Of a stretch of 64,000 nt of DNA, positions 16,148 to 53,875 are shown one piece after another. Where the stretch lies: the NCBI RefSeq assembly GCF_000027125.1, contig NC_017626.1, one strand, 5' to 3'. Each line of letters begins with the position of its first letter. The first letter of the stretch is position 1. The stretch is from Escherichia coli 042. GTDB lineage: Bacteria; Pseudomonadota; Gammaproteobacteria; Enterobacterales; Enterobacteriaceae. Below the pieces are notes generated by a model. The model was not told the DNA's origin. It saw nothing but the letters and a program-made list of their open reading frames with translations, and did not search any database. A program made the position numbers and the translations under genes.

Positions 16148-16223
16148 GCCGATATAGCTCAGTTGGTAGAGCAGCGCATTCGTAATGCGAAGGTCGTAGG
16201 TTCGACTCCTATTATCGGCACCA
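16148..16223 (+). tRNA. thrW: tRNA-Thr (anticodon CGU)
   Basis: 76-nt cloverleaf GCCGATATAGCTCAGTTGGTAGAGCAGCGCATTCGTAATGCG...GGTTCGACTCCTATTATCGGCACCA; anticodon loop TTCGTAA; encoded CCA. Confidence 0.9.
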
Positions 16224-17056: not shown

Positions 17057-17402
17057 AGGGCAACCTCCGATAAGTGGGTGTTCAAGCCACCACCGGAGAG
17101 GCTAATCTCGCGGGTGGTGGAACCGGGCAGGGTTAGCCTTACCAGCCTTATCGGACACTGGCGCGTCTTGCGACGCCCCCGCCCGGCCCACCATTGAGAT
17201 GTAACCGTGCGAACAACACAAAAAAAGACGCTGGCGCGTCATGTGTCGCCGATAAGATTTCTTCAGGAGGCTAATCCCGACGCCTGATTTTGCAGGCGCG
17301 GGAGAAAGATACTGCGATTGGTCATGAGTGGCAAGGGCTACATCATGTTTACCGACATCTCACGCAAAAATACCCTGATTATTAATAGCGAAAATCAGTT
17401 TC

Positions 17403-32540: not shown

Positions 32541-32788
32541 TGCATTGAATAATAAAAATGGCGCAAATGCAGCGCCATTTTTATAGGTTAAAAACATTGC
32601 TTTTTACTTTCTGAAGCAGATAGCCAGTGAGTACATCGCGCTACTTCAGGATGCTGTAGATCCGGAGAACACTATAGAGGAAGATGCATTGTTGCTGGCA
32701 GATGGAAGAAGTTTCGGGTTTTGTTATCCCTGAAAAACGAAGCCCCGCGGTTATAGCTGGCGGGGCAGTGCAATTAATTATTGCATAT

Positions 32789-46195: not shown

Positions 46196-49071
<2,876 letters not shown>

Positions 49072-49621
49072 TTATCGTTCATGAGAAGCATAACGTAAAG
49101 GGAAGAGCTCGATTAGACGGCAGGATTTGTCAGGGGTTATGAACGAAATTCATAAATCTGCTTGAGTGTTGCGATGAGTCGTGCAAGTTCGATATCCCTG
49201 CAATTCACAGTCTGATGAAGAAAAATGAATATCCATAAAAAATATATTGGTTTATCCTGGTGTATATACCTACTTCGACGTATTCCCAATAGCGATTAAT
49301 TAAAGACAGGTCATTATTATTCACTCTTAATAATGAATTATTCACTGCCCGCAGAGTAAGAAATATAACTTAAGTATCTATTTAATAACTTGCACAAAAA
49401 GCTAAATTTTTACCCATAAATAAAAATATAATCCCGCGCCCAACCACCTGATGAGTGGCTACAGACACTGGATATATTAGGTGGCGGTGTACTTTCTTAC
49501 ATAAAGGTATTTCCTTTTCTGCGGAAAAGGAAACCGGGAAATCCCCGGTTTTTCTGACAAGCAGACGCCATTATTTGTGTCTGCCTATGTTCGTTAATTC
49601 GTTCATCAGGAAATTATCTCA

Positions 49622-52600
49622 ATGTCACGTTATAAAACAGGTCATAAACAACCACGATTTCGTTATTCAGTTCTGGCCCGCTGCGTGGCGTGGGCAAATA
49701 TCTCTGTTCAGGTTCTTTTCCCACTCGCTGTCACCTTTACCCCAGTAATGGCAGCACGCGCGCAGCATGCGGTTCAGCCACGTTTGAGCATGGAAAATAC
49801 CACAGTAGCTGCTGATAATAATGTGGAGAAAAATGTCGCGTCGTTTGCCGCAAATGCCGGGACATTTTTAAGCAGTCAGCCAGATAGCGATGCGACACGT
49901 AACTTTATTACCGGAATGGCCACAGCTAAAGCTAACCAGGAAATACAGGAGTGGCTCGGGAAATATGGTACTGCGCGCGTCAAACTGAATGTCGATAAAG
50001 AATTCTCGCTGAAGGATTCTTCGCTGGAAATGCTTTATCCGATTTATGATACGCCGACAAATATGTTGTTCACTCAGGGAGCAATACATCGTACCGACGA
50101 TCGTACTCAGTCAAATATTGGTTTTGGCTGGCGTCATTTTTCAGGAAATGACTGGATGGCGGGGGTGAACACCTTTATCGACCATGATTTATCCCGTAGT
50201 CATACCCGCATTGGTGTTGGTGCGGAATACTGGCGTGATTATTTGAAATTGAGCGCCAATGGTTATATCCGGGCTTCTGGCTGGAAAAAATCGCCGGATG
50301 TTGAGGATTATCAGGAACGCCCGGCGAATGGCTGGGATATTCGTGCTGAGGGCTATTTACCTGCCTGGCCGCAGCTTGGCGCAAGCCTGATGTATGAACA
50401 GTATTATGGCGATGAAGTCGGGCTGTTTGGTAAAGATAAACGCCAGAAAGATCCACATGCGATTACCGCTGAAGTGAATTACACGCCAGTGCCTCTTCTG
50501 ACCCTGAGTGCCGGGCATAAGCAGGGCAAGAGTGGTGAGAATGACACTCGCTTTGGCCTGGAAGTTAATTATCGGATTGGCGAACCTCTGGAAAAACAAC
50601 TCGATACAGACAGCATTCGCGAGCGTCGAATGCTGGCAGGCAGCCGCTATGACCTGGTTGAGCGTAATAACAATATCGTTCTTGAGTATCGCAAATCTGA
50701 AGTGATCCGTATTGCTCTGCCTGAGCGGATTGAAGGTAAGGGCGGTCAGACACTTTCCCTGGGACTTGTGGTCAGCAAAGCAACTCACGGACTGAAAAAT
50801 GTGCAGTGGGAAGCGCCGTCATTACTGGCTGAAGGTGGCAAAATTACCGGTCAGGGTAGTCAGTGGCAAGTAACGCTCCCGGCTTATCGTCCAGGCAAAG
50901 ACAATTATTATGCGGTTTCAGCGATTGCCTACGATAACAAAGGCAATGCCTCGAAACGTGTGCAGACAGAAGTGGTTATTAGCGGAGCTGGTATGAGCGC
51001 CGATCGTACGGCGTTAACGCTTGACGGTCAGAGCCGTATTCAAATGCTTGCTAACGGTAATGAGCAAAAGCCGCTGGTGCTGTCTCTGCGCGACGCCGAG
51101 GGCCAGCCAGTCACGGGCATGAAAGATCAGATCAAGACTGAACTAACCTTCAAACCGGCTGGAAATATTGTGACTCGTACCCTGAAGGCCACTAAATCAC
51201 AGGCAAAGCCAACACTGGGTGAGTTCACCGAAACTGAAGCAGGGGTGTATCAGTCTGTCTTTACTACCGGCACGCAGTCAGGTGAGGCAACGATTACTGT
51301 TAGCGTTGATGGCATGAGCAAAACCGTCACTGCAGAACTGCGGGCCACGATGATGGATGTGGCAAACTCCACCCTGAGCGCTAACGAGCCATCAGGTGAC
51401 GTGGTTGCTGATGGTCAGCAAGCCTACACGCTGACACTGACAGCGGTGGACTCCGAGGGTAATCCGGTGACGGGAGAAGCCAGCCGCCTGCGACTTGTTC
51501 CGCAAGACACTAATGGTGTAACCGTTGGTGCCATTTCGGAAATAAAACCAGGGGTTTACAGCGCCACGGTTTCTTCGACCCGTGCCGGAAACGTTGTTGT
51601 GCGTGCCTTCAGCGAGCAGTATCAGCTGGGCACATTACAACAAACGCTGAAGTTTGTTGCCGGGCCGCTTGATGCAGCACATTCGTCCATCACCCTGAAT
51701 CCGGATAAACCGGTGGTCGGCGGTACAGTTACGGCAATCTGGACGGCAAAAGATGCCAATGACAACCCTGTAACAGGCCTCAATCCGGATGCACCGTCAT
51801 TATCGGGCGCAGCAGCTGCTGGTTCTACGGCATCTGGCTGGACAAATAATGGTGATGGGACGTGGACTGCGCAGATTACTCTCGGCTCTACGGCGGGTGA
51901 ATTAGAAGTTATGCCGAAGCTAAATGGACAGGATGCGGCAGCAAATGCGGCAAAAGTAACCGTGGTGGCTGATGCATTATCTTCAAACCAGTCGAAAGTC
52001 TCTGTCGCAGAAGATCACGTAAAAGCCGGTGAAAGCACAACCGTAACGCTTATTGCAAAAGATGCGCATGGCAACGCTATCAGTGGTCTTTCGTTGTCGG
52101 CAAGTTTGACGGGGACCGCCTCTGAAGGGGCGACCATTTCCAGTTGGACCGAAAAAGGTGACGGTTCCTATGTTGCTACGTTGACCACAGGCGGAAAGAC
52201 GGGCGAGCTTCGTGTCATGCCTCTCTTCAACGGCCAGCCAGCAGCCACCGAAGCCGCGCAGTTGACGGTCATCGCCGGAGAGATGTCATCAGCGAACTCT
52301 ACGCTTGTTGCGGACAATAAGACTCCAACGGTTAAAACGACGACGGAACTCACCTTCACCGTGAAGGATGCGTACGGGAACCCGGTCACCGGGCTGAAGC
52401 CAGATGCACCAGTGTTTAGCGGTGCCGCCAGCACGGGATCAGCGCGACCTTCAGCAGGAAGCTGGACAGAGCAAAGTAATGGGGTCTACGTGGCGACCTT
52501 AACGCTGGGATCGGCTGCAGGTCAGTTGTCTGTGATGCCGCGAGTGAACGGCCAAAATGCCGTTGCTCAGCCACTGGTGCTGAATGTTGCAGGCGACGCT

Positions 52601-53875
52601 TCCCGGGCAGTGATCAGTGATATGGCGGTGAAGGTGAATAACCAACTGGCAAATGGACAGTCTGCTAACCAGGTAACCCTGACCGTCGTGGACAGCTATG
52701 GTAACCCGTTGCAGGGGCAAGAAGTTACGCTGACTTTACCGCAGGGTGTGACTAGCAAGACGGGGAATACAGTAACAACCAATGCGGCAGGTAAGGCGGA
52801 TATTGAGTTGATATCAACCGTTGCAGGGGAACTTGAAATCGCGGCCGCGGTGAAAAACTCTCAGAAGACGGTCACGGTGAAATTCAACGCGGATGCCAGC
52901 ACCGGTCAGGCAAACCTGCAGGTAGACACCGCCGTTCAAAAAGTGGCAAACGGCAAAGATGCCTTTACGCTGACGGCGACCGTTGAGGATAAAAACGGTA
53001 ACCCTGTTCCAGGCACTCTGGTGACCTTTAATCTGCCCCGGGGTGTCAAGCCGCTTACTGGCGATAATGTCTGGGTGAAAGCCAACGATGAGGGGAAAGC
53101 AGAGTTGCAGGTGGTTTCCGTGACTGCCGGAACCTATGAGATCACGGCGTCGGCAGGAAATGACCAGCCTTCAGATGCGCAGACTATAACGTTTGTAGCC
53201 GATAAGGCTACCGCAACCGTCTCCGGTATTGAGGTGATTGGCAACTATGCACTGGCGGACGGCAAAGCCAAACAGACGTATAAAGTTACGGTGACTGATG
53301 CCAATAACAACCTGTTGAAAGATAGCGACGTGACGCTGACTGCCAGCCCGGCTTCGTTAAACCTGGAACCGAATGGCACTGCGACAACGAATGAGCAAGG
53401 GCAGGCTATTTTCACCGCTACCACTACTGTTGCGGCGACATACACACTCAAGGCGCAAGTGAGTCAGACCAACGGTCAGGTATCAACGAAAACTGCCGAA
53501 TCTAAATTCGTCGCGGATGATAAAAACGCGGAGCTCACCGCATCATCTGATGTGCAATCGCTGGTGGCGGATGGGAAATCGACTGCGAAGCTGGAGGTTA
53601 CCCTGTTCTCGGCAAATAACCCTGTTGGGGGGAATGTGTGGGTCGACATTGAGGCTCCGGAAGGAGTGACGGAGAAGGATTATCAATTCCTGCCGTCGAA
53701 AAATGACCATTTCGTGAGCGGAAAAATCACGCGTACATTTAGTACCAGCAAGCCTGGTGTCTATACGTTCACATTTAACGCCCTGACCTATGGCGGGTAC
53801 GAAATGAAGCCAGTGACGGTGACCATAACCGCGGTGGATGCCGATACGGCAAAGGGCGAGGAGGCGATGAAGTAA
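49622..53875 (+). CDS. eaeH: Intimin/invasin-family outer-membrane adhesin with tandem bacterial Ig-like domains (EaeH/FdeC-like), uninterrupted
   Basis: 1417 aa; N-terminal inverse-autotransporter-like region followed by repeated Big-domain blocks (LTLTAVDSEGNPVTG, VTLIAKDAHGNAISG, TFTVKDAYGNPVTG, LTVVDSYGNPLQG, TATVEDKNGNPVPG). Confidence 0.85.
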   Translation: MSRYKTGHKQPRFRYSVLARCVAWANISVQVLFPLAVTFTPVMAARAQHAVQPRLSMENTTVAADNNVEKNVASFAANAGTFLSSQPDSDATRNFITGMATAKANQEIQEWLGKYGTARVKLNVDKEFSLKDSSLEMLYPIYDTPTNMLFTQGAIHRTDDRTQSNIGFGWRHFSGNDWMAGVNTFIDHDLSRSHTRIGVGAEYWRDYLKLSANGYIRASGWKKSPDVEDYQERPANGWDIRAEGYLPAWPQLGASLMYEQYYGDEVGLFGKDKRQKDPHAITAEVNYTPVPLLTLSAGHKQGKSGENDTRFGLEVNYRIGEPLEKQLDTDSIRERRMLAGSRYDLVERNNNIVLEYRKSEVIRIALPERIEGKGGQTLSLGLVVSKATHGLKNVQWEAPSLLAEGGKITGQGSQWQVTLPAYRPGKDNYYAVSAIAYDNKGNASKRVQTEVVISGAGMSADRTALTLDGQSRIQMLANGNEQKPLVLSLRDAEGQPVTGMKDQIKTELTFKPAGNIVTRTLKATKSQAKPTLGEFTETEAGVYQSVFTTGTQSGEATITVSVDGMSKTVTAELRATMMDVANSTLSANEPSGDVVADGQQAYTLTLTAVDSEGNPVTGEASRLRLVPQDTNGVTVGAISEIKPGVYSATVSSTRAGNVVVRAFSEQYQLGTLQQTLKFVAGPLDAAHSSITLNPDKPVVGGTVTAIWTAKDANDNPVTGLNPDAPSLSGAAAAGSTASGWTNNGDGTWTAQITLGSTAGELEVMPKLNGQDAAANAAKVTVVADALSSNQSKVSVAEDHVKAGESTTVTLIAKDAHGNAISGLSLSASLTGTASEGATISSWTEKGDGSYVATLTTGGKTGELRVMPLFNGQPAATEAAQLTVIAGEMSSANSTLVADNKTPTVKTTTELTFTVKDAYGNPVTGLKPDAPVFSGAASTGSARPSAGSWTEQSNGVYVATLTLGSAAGQLSVMPRVNGQNAVAQPLVLNVAGDASRAVISDMAVKVNNQLANGQSANQVTLTVVDSYGNPLQGQEVTLTLPQGVTSKTGNTVTTNAAGKADIELISTVAGELEIAAAVKNSQKTVTVKFNADASTGQANLQVDTAVQKVANGKDAFTLTATVEDKNGNPVPGTLVTFNLPRGVKPLTGDNVWVKANDEGKAELQVVSVTAGTYEITASAGNDQPSDAQTITFVADKATATVSGIEVIGNYALADGKAKQTYKVTVTDANNNLLKDSDVTLTASPASLNLEPNGTATTNEQGQAIFTATTTVAATYTLKAQVSQTNGQVSTKTAESKFVADDKNAELTASSDVQSLVADGKSTAKLEVTLFSANNPVGGNVWVDIEAPEGVTEKDYQFLPSKNDHFVSGKITRTFSTSKPGVYTFTFNALTYGGYEMKPVTVTITAVDADTAKGEEAMK

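What the first reader, a model, noticed from the sequence alone, without database searches (positions are those of the whole stretch)
49513..49555. Two adjacent stem-loops ending in a T-tract in the eaeH 5' region: orphan terminator or attenuator
CCTTTTC-TGCG-GAAAAGG (49513-49530) is immediately followed by AAACCGGG-AAATC-CCCGGTTT (49531-49551) and TTCT. The second looks like an intrinsic terminator on the plus strand, yet no plus-strand gene lies upstream (the nearest genes are on the minus strand) and the eaeH start is 70 nt downstream. It could be the 3' end of a small RNA, a 5'-leader attenuator of eaeH, or a remnant.
Basis: seen in the sequence. Interest (0 to 1): 0.25.

Follow-up and report, generated by a model that had tools for sequence, protein, structure and literature searches.

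The report
Terminator-like hairpin in fdeC leader
The two hairpins and the T-run are real and belong to a strongly conserved, folded RNA leader in front of the E. coli adhesin gene fdeC, where the second hairpin most likely stops part of transcription early; this is a known kind of control and has not been shown experimentally here.

Summary
HP1 (49510-49533) and HP2 (49531-49551) plus TTTTTCT lie 70 nt upstream of the fdeC/eaeH ATG. The region is single-copy and present in about 5035 of 5426 complete E. coli genomes.

They are not orphans. They sit in a 233-nt block (49389-49621) that travels with fdeC and is 3-30 times less diverse than fdeC 4-fold sites. Across 122 natural leaders the HP2 stem changes almost only by C>U, which keeps G.U pairs. 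HP3 and HP0 show compensatory changes. Pairing is kept only on the plus strand, so this is a transcribed plus-strand RNA. That rules out a remnant or a minus-strand element.

In a terminator scan of the whole window, HP2 ranks 6th of 11 sites. It is the only site above d=4 that does not follow a gene.

Best reading: an intrinsic terminator (attenuator) in a roughly 183-nt structured fdeC 5' UTR, probably leaky, with no built-in antiterminator. The hairpin is weaker in about half of the sampled leaders, including K-12.

The transcription start, the 3' ends and any regulation are inferred. K-12 Term-seq tables list no 3' end here, but the locus is silenced there.

U-tract pairing with the Shine-Dalgarno (a fourU-like thermometer) is predicted, but it is not above chance.

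The parts
49389..49408 (+). Left edge of the fdeC-linked conserved block (CTTGCACAAAAAGCTAAATT); a candidate promoter-upstream or activator element
   Evidence: Homology with the divergent E69 lineage starts exactly here, although its upstream neighbour gene differs. The stretch is invariant in 122 leaders apart from single indels.
49427..49432 (+). Perfect TATAAT, the putative -10 of the fdeC promoter; the inferred start is about 49439
   Evidence: No substitution in any of 122 leaders, including the E69-like ones. No acceptable -35 was found (and inspection). The start site is inferred, not mapped.
49444..49484 (+). HP0, a 5'-proximal stem-loop of the leader
   Evidence: RNAalifold consensus. 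Three pairs carry changes on both sides. 98.3% of cells pair on the plus strand against 84.2% on the minus strand.
49489..49510 (+). HPa, a weak hairpin (-2.7 kcal/mol) seen only in the truncated (terminated) RNA
   Evidence: There is no covariation evidence.
49510..49533 (+). HP1: TTTCCTTTTC / TGCG / GAAAAGGAAA, 9-10 bp, -10.6 to -11.5 kcal/mol
   Evidence: The stem is nearly invariant and the loop is polymorphic (UGCG, UGUG, UACG).
49531..49551 (+). HP2: AAACCGGG / AAATC / CCCGGTTT, the terminator-like hairpin (core -8.1, extended -11.6 kcal/mol)
   Evidence: Four of six pairs vary on one side only, always keeping G.U. The loop is variable. Predicted pairing probability is 0.8-1.0 in all 33 variants.
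49549..49555 (+). U-tract TTTTTCT, the terminator tail; in read-through RNA it is predicted to pair with the Shine-Dalgarno region
   Evidence: Positions 49550-49559 are invariant in 122 leaders, diversity 0.008. The helix 49550-49557 with 49606-49613 has probability about 0.68 at 37 C and appears in the RNAalifold consensus.
49561..49584 (+). HP3: GCAGACGC / 8-nt loop / GTGTCTGC, downstream of the terminator
   Evidence: G-C to A-U compensatory change at 49564/49581, and G.U to G-C or A-U at 49567/49578. 99.2% of cells pair on the plus strand against 87.5% on the minus strand.
49585..49607 (+). Invariant linker containing the repeat UUCGUU-AA-UUCGUU; function unknown
   Evidence: Diversity is 0.003 over 49585-49601, which lies outside the retrieval anchor.
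49608..49613 (+). Shine-Dalgarno AGGAAA of fdeC
   Evidence: It is invariant in the five genome-derived sequences.
49622..53875 (+). fdeC (eaeH) coding sequence, 1417 aa, an inverse autotransporter adhesin
   Evidence: ORF; RefSeq annotation of identical DNA.

Best explanation
HP1, HP2 and the T-run are part of the 5' untranslated leader RNA of fdeC. A promoter whose -10 is probably the invariant TATAAT at 49427-49432 would start transcription near 49439, giving a leader of about 183 nt. The leader folds into HP0, HPa, HP1, HP2, HP3 and a linker that carries the Shine-Dalgarno. HP2 is a GC-rich 5-8 bp stem with a 5-nt loop, followed directly by UUUUUCU. It has the anatomy of an intrinsic (Rho-independent) terminator. 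As soon as it is transcribed, it should release a fraction of RNA polymerases around 49553-49558, yielding a short leader RNA of about 115-120 nt and lowering transcription into fdeC. Only read-through transcripts carry HP3 and the ribosome-binding site. Termination is probably partial and on by default, because no competing antiterminator fold or leader peptide is evident. Any modulation would need a trans factor or a change in polymerase or elongation state.

Shown here: the sequence, its conservation, selection for plus-strand RNA pairing, and a terminator-grade score.

Inferred: the position of the start site, that termination actually occurs, and how efficient it is.
For: - **Anatomy:** the coordinates are as described, and the fold is stable.
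- **Terminator grade:** HP2 ranks 6th of 11 sites with d>0 in 128 kb scanned. All the other sites with d>4 lie on gene-end hairpins.
- **Ubiquity:** the region is single-copy and present in 5035 of 5426 complete E. coli genomes. It is also conserved in Escherichia sp. E1V33, E. whittamii and the divergent E69 lineage.
- **Purifying selection:** diversity is 0.003-0.03 in most of 49389-49601, against 0.108 at fdeC 4-fold sites and 0.10 in the distal intergenic region.
- **RNA-level, plus-strand constraint:** HP2 stem variants are C>U and keep G.U pairs. HP3 and HP0 show compensatory double changes. Four pairs have changes on both sides, against 0.4 in shuffles (0 of 500 shuffles reach it). 99% of cells pair on the plus strand, against 84-91% for HP0, HP2 and HP3 on the minus strand.
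- **U-tract:** invariant in 122 leaders.
- **Read-through:** covariation in HP3, downstream of the terminator, implies that read-through transcripts are made and are under selection. This fits an attenuator rather than a full stop.
- **Module boundary:** homology to the E69 lineage begins at 49389, although the upstream gene differs. Promoter, leader and fdeC therefore behave as one unit.
Against: - **No mapped ends.** No transcript 5' or 3' end has been mapped here. The curated K-12 Term-seq tables list no 3' end near these coordinates. This is weak evidence, because eaeH is a disrupted gene in K-12 (annotated pseudogene beside IS3) that I recall being H-NS-silenced, and K-12 carries the weaker HP2 variant.
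- **Variable strength.** In about half of the leaders C49534 is T, which lowers the d-score to -3.6 (borderline). Rarer variants score lower still. Terminator strength is therefore not strictly maintained.
- **Short tail.** The U-run is only five U, then C and U.
- **Weak promoter call.** The promoter rests on a -10 hexamer with no recognisable -35.
- **No switch.** No antiterminator alternative was found (5.7 kcal/mol worse), so 'regulated attenuator' is unsupported.
- **Other roles fit too.** The same conservation would also be expected if HP2 served only as a structural or stability element of the leader.
Confidence: 0.5

Rival explanations
1. Translational riboregulator or RNA thermometer. 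In full-length leaders the U-tract (UUUUCUGA, 49550-49557) pairs with the Shine-Dalgarno region (UCAGGAAA, 49606-49613). HP3 acts as a clamp, and the outer helices cover the AUG. Melting at 39-42 C would then open the ribosome-binding site and explain heat-induced FdeC. On this reading HP2 is scaffold and the T-run is an anti-SD, not primarily a terminator tail.
For: This helix appears in the single-sequence MFE at 25-42 C, with probability 0.68 at 37 C, and in the RNAalifold consensus. Both sides are invariant. The Shine-Dalgarno GGA is predicted 78-98% paired in all 33 variants. HP3 is maintained by covariation, and a pure terminator model gives it no role. FdeC protein expressed from its native promoter and leader is induced at 42 C compared with 37 C in APEC, and only at 39 C or above in EHEC according to the work cited there (PMC11143625).
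Against: The complementarity is not above chance. A duplex of -7.5 kcal/mol or better with the SD region occurs in 43% of shuffled leaders, and SD occlusion as strong as observed occurs in 13% of shuffles. The predicted opening between 37 and 42 C is gradual (mean unpaired AGGA 0.107 to 0.144). The probability of this specific helix ranges from 0.0 to 0.88 among natural variants. There is no covariation, because nothing varies. The reported thermoregulation is attributed to H-NS in the title of the cited study, which I could not read.
Confidence: 0.13
2. The prematurely terminated leader RNA of about 115-120 nt (49439 to about 49556) is itself a trans-acting small RNA, and HP2 is its terminator.
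For: The terminated product would be a compact, structured RNA ending in a terminator hairpin, like the 5'-UTR-derived sRNAs described in E. coli (PMC7815308). The leader is conserved well beyond what a terminator alone needs.
Against: No gene at this locus is named in the held supplements of the K-12 Term-seq study or the EPEC Hfq RIL-seq study, and the Term-seq tables list no 3' end at these coordinates. There is no Rfam match. The RNA would be almost fully base-paired, with no obvious single-stranded seed. The U-tail is short for Hfq binding (my knowledge). The strongest conservation lies downstream of the terminator (49585-49601), which an sRNA would not include.
Confidence: 0.1
3. The hairpins stabilise the mRNA or shape the leader (like the ompA 5'-UTR hairpins), and the T-run is incidental.
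For: HP0 begins about 5 nt from the inferred 5' end. All hairpins are kept by selection on the plus-strand RNA. Selection tolerates weakening of HP2 to a borderline terminator score.
Against: This does not explain the invariant U-run placed directly after a GC-rich stem. In the rest of the window that combination is found only at gene ends.
Confidence: 0.12
4. The palindromes act at the DNA level as protein-binding sites, or on the minus strand as a terminator or insulator that shields the aldo/keto reductase promoter from antisense transcription.
For: HP1 is a perfect 10+10 palindrome. The built-in scanner flags HP1 on the minus strand as terminator-like. The minus-strand fold is nearly as stable as the plus-strand fold.
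Against: The polymorphism pattern is strand-specific. The common C49534T gives U.G on the plus strand but an A.C mismatch on the minus strand. HP2 and HP3 pair in 99% of cells on the plus strand against 91% and 87.5% on the minus strand. The minus-strand tails are poor, and no minus-strand site here reaches d>0. No gene on the minus strand ends here.
Confidence: 0.05
5. An evolutionary remnant of a former gene-end terminator with no present function.
For: There is no plus-strand gene upstream.
Against: Diversity is 3-30 times lower than at neutral sites, substitutions keep the pairing, and the element is retained in four Escherichia lineages, including one with a different upstream neighbour.
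Confidence: 0.03

Closest known systems
Premature intrinsic termination in E. coli 5' UTRs (3' ends in leaders mapped by Term-seq; Adams et al. 2021, PMC7815308)
   Same: A GC-rich hairpin plus U-tract lies between a promoter and the start codon of the gene it precedes. The expected outcome is a short leader RNA plus a fraction of read-through mRNA.
   Different: That study lists no 3' end at this locus. Here termination is predicted from sequence and conservation only.
Classical regulated attenuators (trp and pyrBI leader-peptide attenuation; bgl and sac protein-mediated antitermination)
   Same: A terminator in a leader upstream of the regulated gene.
   Different: There is no conserved leader ORF: the 9-codon ATG at 49451 is lost in the E69 lineage. 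No mutually exclusive antiterminator was found (5.7 kcal/mol worse), and no RAT-like or ops element.
FourU RNA thermometers (Salmonella agsA, Yersinia lcrF; from my knowledge)
   Same: A run of U is predicted to pair with the AGGA of the Shine-Dalgarno, with a G.U pair in the helix. The gene product is reported to be heat-induced.
   Different: Known fourU elements are short local hairpins. Here the helix is long-range and encloses 48 nt, its complementarity is not above chance, and the predicted melting is gradual.
ompA-type 5'-UTR stabilising hairpins of outer-membrane protein mRNAs (from my knowledge)
   Same: A long structured leader of an outer-membrane protein gene, with a hairpin near the 5' end.
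   Different: The ompA hairpins are not followed by a U-tract. No half-life data exist for fdeC.
H-NS and temperature control of fdeC (Easton et al. 2014, known here only through citations in PMC11143625 and PMC6714894)
   Same: It concerns the same gene and the same regulatory region. The AT-rich DNA (31.5% GC over 49137-49438) fits H-NS silencing.
   Different: That mechanism acts on DNA and initiation. The element described here is an RNA structure downstream of the putative start. I could not read the paper, so I do not know whether it mapped the start site.

Membership tests
Intrinsic (Rho-independent) terminator | GC-rich stem-loop with a short loop | tested here: met
   The CCGGG/CCCGG core has a 5-nt loop (-8.1 kcal/mol). 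It extends to 8 bp with A/U pairs (-11.6 kcal/mol).
Intrinsic (Rho-independent) terminator | U-rich tract directly after the stem | tested here: met
   UUUUUCU follows the GC core directly. It is invariant in 122 leaders. d = 8.0, ranking 6th of 11 in the window, and the other high scorers are gene-end terminators. The score falls to borderline (d = -3.6) in the common C49534T variant.
Intrinsic (Rho-independent) terminator | Lies in a transcribed region on the strand that forms the hairpin | tested here: met
   This is indirect evidence. G.U-preserving and compensatory substitutions fit the plus-strand RNA only. No transcript data were available.
Intrinsic (Rho-independent) terminator | RNA 3' ends map to the U-tract | not testable with these tools
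   The K-12 Term-seq supplement has no entry at these coordinates. The locus is not expected to be expressed in K-12, so this is uninformative.
Regulated transcription attenuator | An alternative antiterminator structure, a leader peptide, or a factor-binding site that competes with the terminator | tested here: not met
   The best fold without HP2 is 5.7 kcal/mol less stable. HP2 pairing probability is 0.8-1.0 in all variants. The only mini-ORF is not conserved. A trans factor cannot be excluded.
FourU RNA thermometer | Four U pairing with the Shine-Dalgarno in a temperature-labile helix | tested here: inconclusive
   The helix is predicted (p = 0.68 at 37 C; consensus fold). It is long-range, not above chance, variable among strains, and predicted to open only gradually.
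Hfq-dependent small RNA | A discrete short transcript with terminator and U-tail, bound by Hfq, with a single-stranded seed | tested here: inconclusive
   There is no entry in the held EPEC RIL-seq supplements. The fold leaves no evident single-stranded seed. The transcript itself was not observable.
Any curated Rfam family (riboswitches, leaders, sRNAs) | A covariance-model match at or near the gathering score | tested here: not met
   The only hit on the element is DUF2815 RNA on the minus strand, at 18.5 bits against a gathering score of 41.2, E = 5.1. Nothing reaches gathering score at this locus in the whole window.
CsrA-repressed leader (pgaA or glgC type) | Several GGA motifs, one overlapping the Shine-Dalgarno, bound by CsrA | tested here: inconclusive
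   Four GGA motifs (49523, 49529, 37 and 49609) are seen by eye, but none sits in a hairpin loop. The locus does not appear in the held supplements of a K-12 CsrA CLIP-seq study or an EPEC csrA transcriptome.
Repeated or mobile element (REP, ERIC, MITE) | Multiple copies per genome | tested here: not met
   The median is one place per genome. There is no second copy in the window. nhmmer finds nothing in 75 loci of related adhesin genes from other genera.

The most novel reading that the evidence does not exclude
The T-run has two jobs. It is the tail of a leaky intrinsic terminator. In transcripts that read through, it is also the anti-Shine-Dalgarno strand of a three-way-junction leader (HP2, HP3 and the anti-SD helix). 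That leader would open at 39-42 C or on binding of a factor. Such an RNA switch, specific to Escherichia, would contribute to the unexplained heat- and host-contact-induced expression of the vaccine-candidate adhesin FdeC, on top of H-NS silencing.
Probability: 0.12. Interest if true: 0.55.

Novelty: new member of a known kind. Interest (0 to 1): 0.33.

Why it matters
FdeC is a widely conserved E. coli adhesin that has been studied as a vaccine antigen. It is almost silent in the laboratory and comes on at 39-42 C or on host contact, and the accessible literature explains this only through H-NS. A conserved, structured leader with a terminator-grade hairpin is an unannotated second layer of control. 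It could help explain why fdeC stays off even when its promoter fires, and it offers simple mutations (HP2 stem, U-tract) to test. It also matters for anyone building fdeC reporter or expression constructs, because including or omitting 49439-49621 should change the output. In kind it is an ordinary bacterial device, so the value is local to fdeC biology.

Tried and rejected
- **Rfam.** A permissive scan of 48000-51000 and a gathering-score scan of the whole window found nothing at the element.
- **Repeated element.** Rejected, because the element is single-copy.
- **Leaders of distant fdeC homologues.** Citrobacter, Cedecea, Salmonella arizonae, Yersinia, Pantoea and others have unrelated upstream sequences. 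blastn and nhmmer find no homology, so no deep comparison was possible.
- **E69-like variants in the complete-genome collection.** None were found.
- **Literature and supplements.**
  - The Easton 2014 and Thomason 2015 papers are not held.
  - The Conway 2014, Melamed 2016 and Sy 2020 papers have no held supplements.
  - The Adams 2021 Term-seq, EPEC RIL-seq, CsrA CLIP-seq and EPEC csrA tables contain no entry for the locus.
  - One literature search was wasted on terms that were too broad.
- **Anti-SD significance.** The U-tract/SD duplex is matched in 43% of shuffles. The best duplex, CCUGAUG at 49447-53, occurs in 2.5% of shuffles but is not conserved in the E69 lineage. SD occlusion as strong as observed occurs in 13% of shuffles.
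- **Built-in antiterminator.** None is competitive.
- **Leader peptide.** The 9-codon ORF at 49451 is not conserved, and the 97-aa GTG ORF at 49455 has no support.
- **RfaH ops element.** By inspection only 6 of 12 bases match, and the match is not conserved.
- **Sigma-54 and sigma-32 promoter look-alikes.** By inspection the spacing is wrong or the match is not conserved. The sigma-32-like match is kept as a note only.
- **C>T versus G>A asymmetry across the three stems.** The trend is right (7 of 13 against 3 of 14 positions) but not significant (p = 0.12).

Full report
**Where the finding lies.** The window is E. coli chromosome. The finding sits in the 565-nt intergenic region between a minus-strand aldo/keto reductase gene (48205-49056) and the full-length inverse-autotransporter adhesin gene fdeC, also called eaeH (49622-53875, plus strand). 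Identical DNA in RefSeq genomes carries these annotations. In K-12 the same region lies between the ykgP and eaeH pseudogenes.

- HP1 is CCTTTTC-TGCG-GAAAAGG and can extend to 10 bp (49510-49533).
- HP2 is AAACCGGG-AAATC-CCCGGTTT (49531-49551).
- The T-run is 49549-49553, followed by C and T.
- The 61-nt stretch folds at -22 kcal/mol as plus-strand RNA (z = -3.1) and at -20.2 kcal/mol as minus-strand RNA.

To judge how terminator-like HP2 is, I scanned both strands of the 64-kb window. The scan used my own implementation of the d'Aubenton-Carafa d-score with ViennaRNA energies, so the threshold is approximate.
- Only 11 sites score above zero.
- HP2 ranks sixth, with d = 8.0.
- All the other sites above d = 4 lie on hairpins just downstream of an ORF. 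One of them is the minus arm of a bidirectional hairpin at 32559-32577, whose plus arm follows an ORF by 19 nt.
- The built-in scanner missed it, because it counts the A/T pairs as stem and then finds too few T in the tail.

**Distribution.** The proximal 186 nt is single-copy and present in 5035 of 5426 complete E. coli genomes at 95-100% identity. There is no second copy in the window. A protein-anchored scan of one genome per species found true orthologues with the same leader only in three other lineages: Escherichia sp. E1V33, E. whittamii and a divergent lineage labelled E. coli E69.

In E69 the upstream neighbour is a different gene. Homology with the window starts abruptly at CTTGCACAAAAAGC (49389). 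The block 49389-49621 therefore travels with fdeC as one module. More distant inverse-autotransporter genes in other genera have unrelated upstream sequences.

**Selection.** An exact-match scan of metagenome contigs, anchored on the Shine-Dalgarno-to-ATG 23-mer, was combined with the genome loci. This gave 122 leaders, 49 of them distinct. The table compares nucleotide diversity across 87 loci with long flanks.

| Segment | Diversity |
|---|---|
| fdeC 4-fold degenerate sites | 0.108 |
| Distal intergenic region | about 0.10 |
| 49389-49509 | 0.029 |
| HP1 | 0.019 |
| HP2 | 0.078 |
| U-tract (49550-49560) | 0.008 |
| HP3 | 0.024 |
| 49585-49601 | 0.003 |

The higher value in HP2 comes from its loop and from one stem position, C49534T.

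**Strand and RNA level.** On an alignment of 33 distinct leaders (A2), RNAalifold recovers HP0 (49444-49484), HP1, HP2, HP3 (49561-49584) and a long-range helix.
- **Pair counts:** 99.2% of cells are paired. Four pairs have changes on both sides, against 0.4 expected from shuffles (0 of 500 shuffles reach it). Sliding the partners drops pairing to 38-49%.
- **HP2:** four of six pairs vary on one side only, and every one of those changes is C>U, which keeps a G.U pair. The loop varies freely.
- **HP3:** it shows G-C to A-U at 49564/49581, and G.U to G-C or A-U at 49567/49578.
- **Minus-strand control:** read as minus-strand RNA, the same variants would be A.C mismatches. Pairing falls from 98-99% to 84% (HP0), 91% (HP2) and 87.5% (HP3).
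- **What this excludes:** the selected object is a plus-strand RNA. This removes the 'remnant', 'minus-strand terminator' and 'DNA palindrome' readings as main explanations.
- **Caveats:** a pooled test of C>T against G>A positions across the three stems goes the right way but is not significant (p = 0.12). The sequences are closely related, so cell counts overstate the number of independent events.

**Transcription unit.**
- HP0 also shows plus-strand-specific pairing, so the transcript must start at or before about 49444.
- The only strong promoter element is a perfect TATAAT at 49427-49432. It carries no substitution in 122 leaders. It is followed by a GC-rich discriminator, which would place the start near 49439.
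- No acceptable -35 exists (and inspection), so the start site is an inference.
- The DNA upstream is AT-rich: 31.5% GC over 49137-49438. This fits the H-NS silencing named in the title of Easton et al. 2014, which I could not read.

**Mechanism.** HP2 with its U-tract has the anatomy and the score of an intrinsic terminator placed about 95-118 nt into a 183-nt leader.
- HP3 and the invariant linker lie downstream and are under selection. Some transcripts must therefore read through.
- The element is thus best described as a leaky leader terminator, that is, an attenuator in the broad sense.
- I found no sign of a built-in switch. The best fold lacking HP2 is 5.7 kcal/mol worse. HP2 forms with probability 0.8-1.0 in all 33 variants. 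The only mini-ORF is not conserved.
- Terminator strength is not rigidly maintained. Of 122 leaders, 46 carry the window allele, 46 carry T49534 (d = -3.6), and 15 carry T49534 together with a flipped loop.

**The alternative I looked at hardest.** In full-length leaders the U-tract UUUUCUGA (49550-49557) is predicted to pair with UCAGGAAA (49606-49613), which covers the Shine-Dalgarno.
- *Prediction.* HP3 sits inside the junction, and outer helices reach the AUG. This resembles a fourU thermometer.
- *Supporting observation.* FdeC made from its native promoter and leader is induced at 42 C compared with 37 C in APEC, and at 39 C or above in EHEC according to the work cited there (PMC11143625).
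- *Controls do not support specificity.* A duplex this good occurs in 43% of shuffled leaders. Equal SD occlusion occurs in 13% of shuffles. Predicted opening from 37 to 42 C is small. The probability of the helix varies from 0 to 0.88 among natural variants.
- I keep it as the most novel reading that is not excluded, at about 0.12.

**Experimental record.**
- The curated K-12 Term-seq tables (PMC7815308) list no 3' end near K-12 coordinates 314,1xx-314,3xx and no entry for eaeH, ykgP or ykgR.
- The held supplements of an EPEC Hfq RIL-seq study, a K-12 CsrA CLIP-seq study and an EPEC csrA transcriptome do not mention the locus.
- These negatives are weak, because eaeH is a disrupted gene in K-12 that I recall being H-NS-silenced, and fdeC is poorly expressed in laboratory culture.
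- No Rfam family matches.

**Verdict.** It is part of a conserved, structured, plus-strand fdeC leader RNA, in which HP2 and the U-tract most probably act as a partial intrinsic terminator.

This is a new, unannotated example of a familiar kind of control. Whether it is regulated, and whether the U-tract also masks the ribosome-binding site, needs transcript-end mapping and reporter mutagenesis.

Noticed in passing
window 49536-49546 (variants in L082, L083, L086, L126 and others): 15 of 122 leaders carry GGGGATTTCCC instead of GGGAAATCCCC. This is the exact reverse complement of the hairpin tip, so three substitutions arose at once. It looks like a quasi-palindrome template-switch 'loop flip', and it leaves the hairpin intact.
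   Followed up: partly
window 49585-49607: This is the most conserved stretch of the whole intergenic region (diversity 0.003 in 87 loci). It contains the direct repeat UUCGUU-AA-UUCGUU just upstream of the Shine-Dalgarno. Neither the terminator reading nor the anti-SD reading explains it; it may be a binding site for a protein or sRNA.
   Followed up: no
window 49389-49419: CTTGCAC-N16-ACCCATAA (CCCCCATAA in K-12) resembles the sigma-32 heat-shock promoter consensus as I recall it (CTTGAAA-N13/14-CCCCATNT). That would be interesting given FdeC heat induction. However, the spacer is 2-3 nt too long and the -10-like part is lost in the E69 lineage.
   Followed up: partly
L161 (metagenome contig), equivalent to window 49496-49525: One contig has a 30-nt deletion that removes the 3' half of HPa and the 5' arm of HP1 but keeps HP2 and the U-tract. 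This is a single observation and could be an assembly error.
   Followed up: no
L004 2300-3010 (lineage labelled E. coli E69), against window 49300-49640: In this lineage (91% FdeC identity) the upstream neighbour is a different 476-aa minus-strand ORF. Similarity to the window starts exactly at CTTGCACAAAAAGC (49389), which marks the left border of the fdeC module.
   Followed up: partly
window 16148-16220, 17110-17198, 17221-17299: Rfam gathering-score hits: a tRNA (plus strand), C4 antisense RNA and isrK Hfq-binding RNA (both minus strand). They lie next to the strongest terminator-like site in the window (17227-17240, minus, d = 29.2), which suggests a P4- or P2-like prophage region beside a tRNA gene.
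   Followed up: no
window 32546-32746 and 32559-32577: An Rfam IS009 RNA hit (190.7 bits) overlaps a hairpin that scores as a terminator on both strands (d = 18.8 minus, 6.8 plus), so it is a likely bidirectional terminator.
   Followed up: no
window 49447-49453 against 49604-49610: CCUGAUG in the 5' arm of HP0 is a perfect 7-nt complement of CAUCAGG at the Shine-Dalgarno (-11.2 kcal/mol; 2.5% of shuffles do as well). It is not conserved in the E69 lineage.
   Followed up: partly
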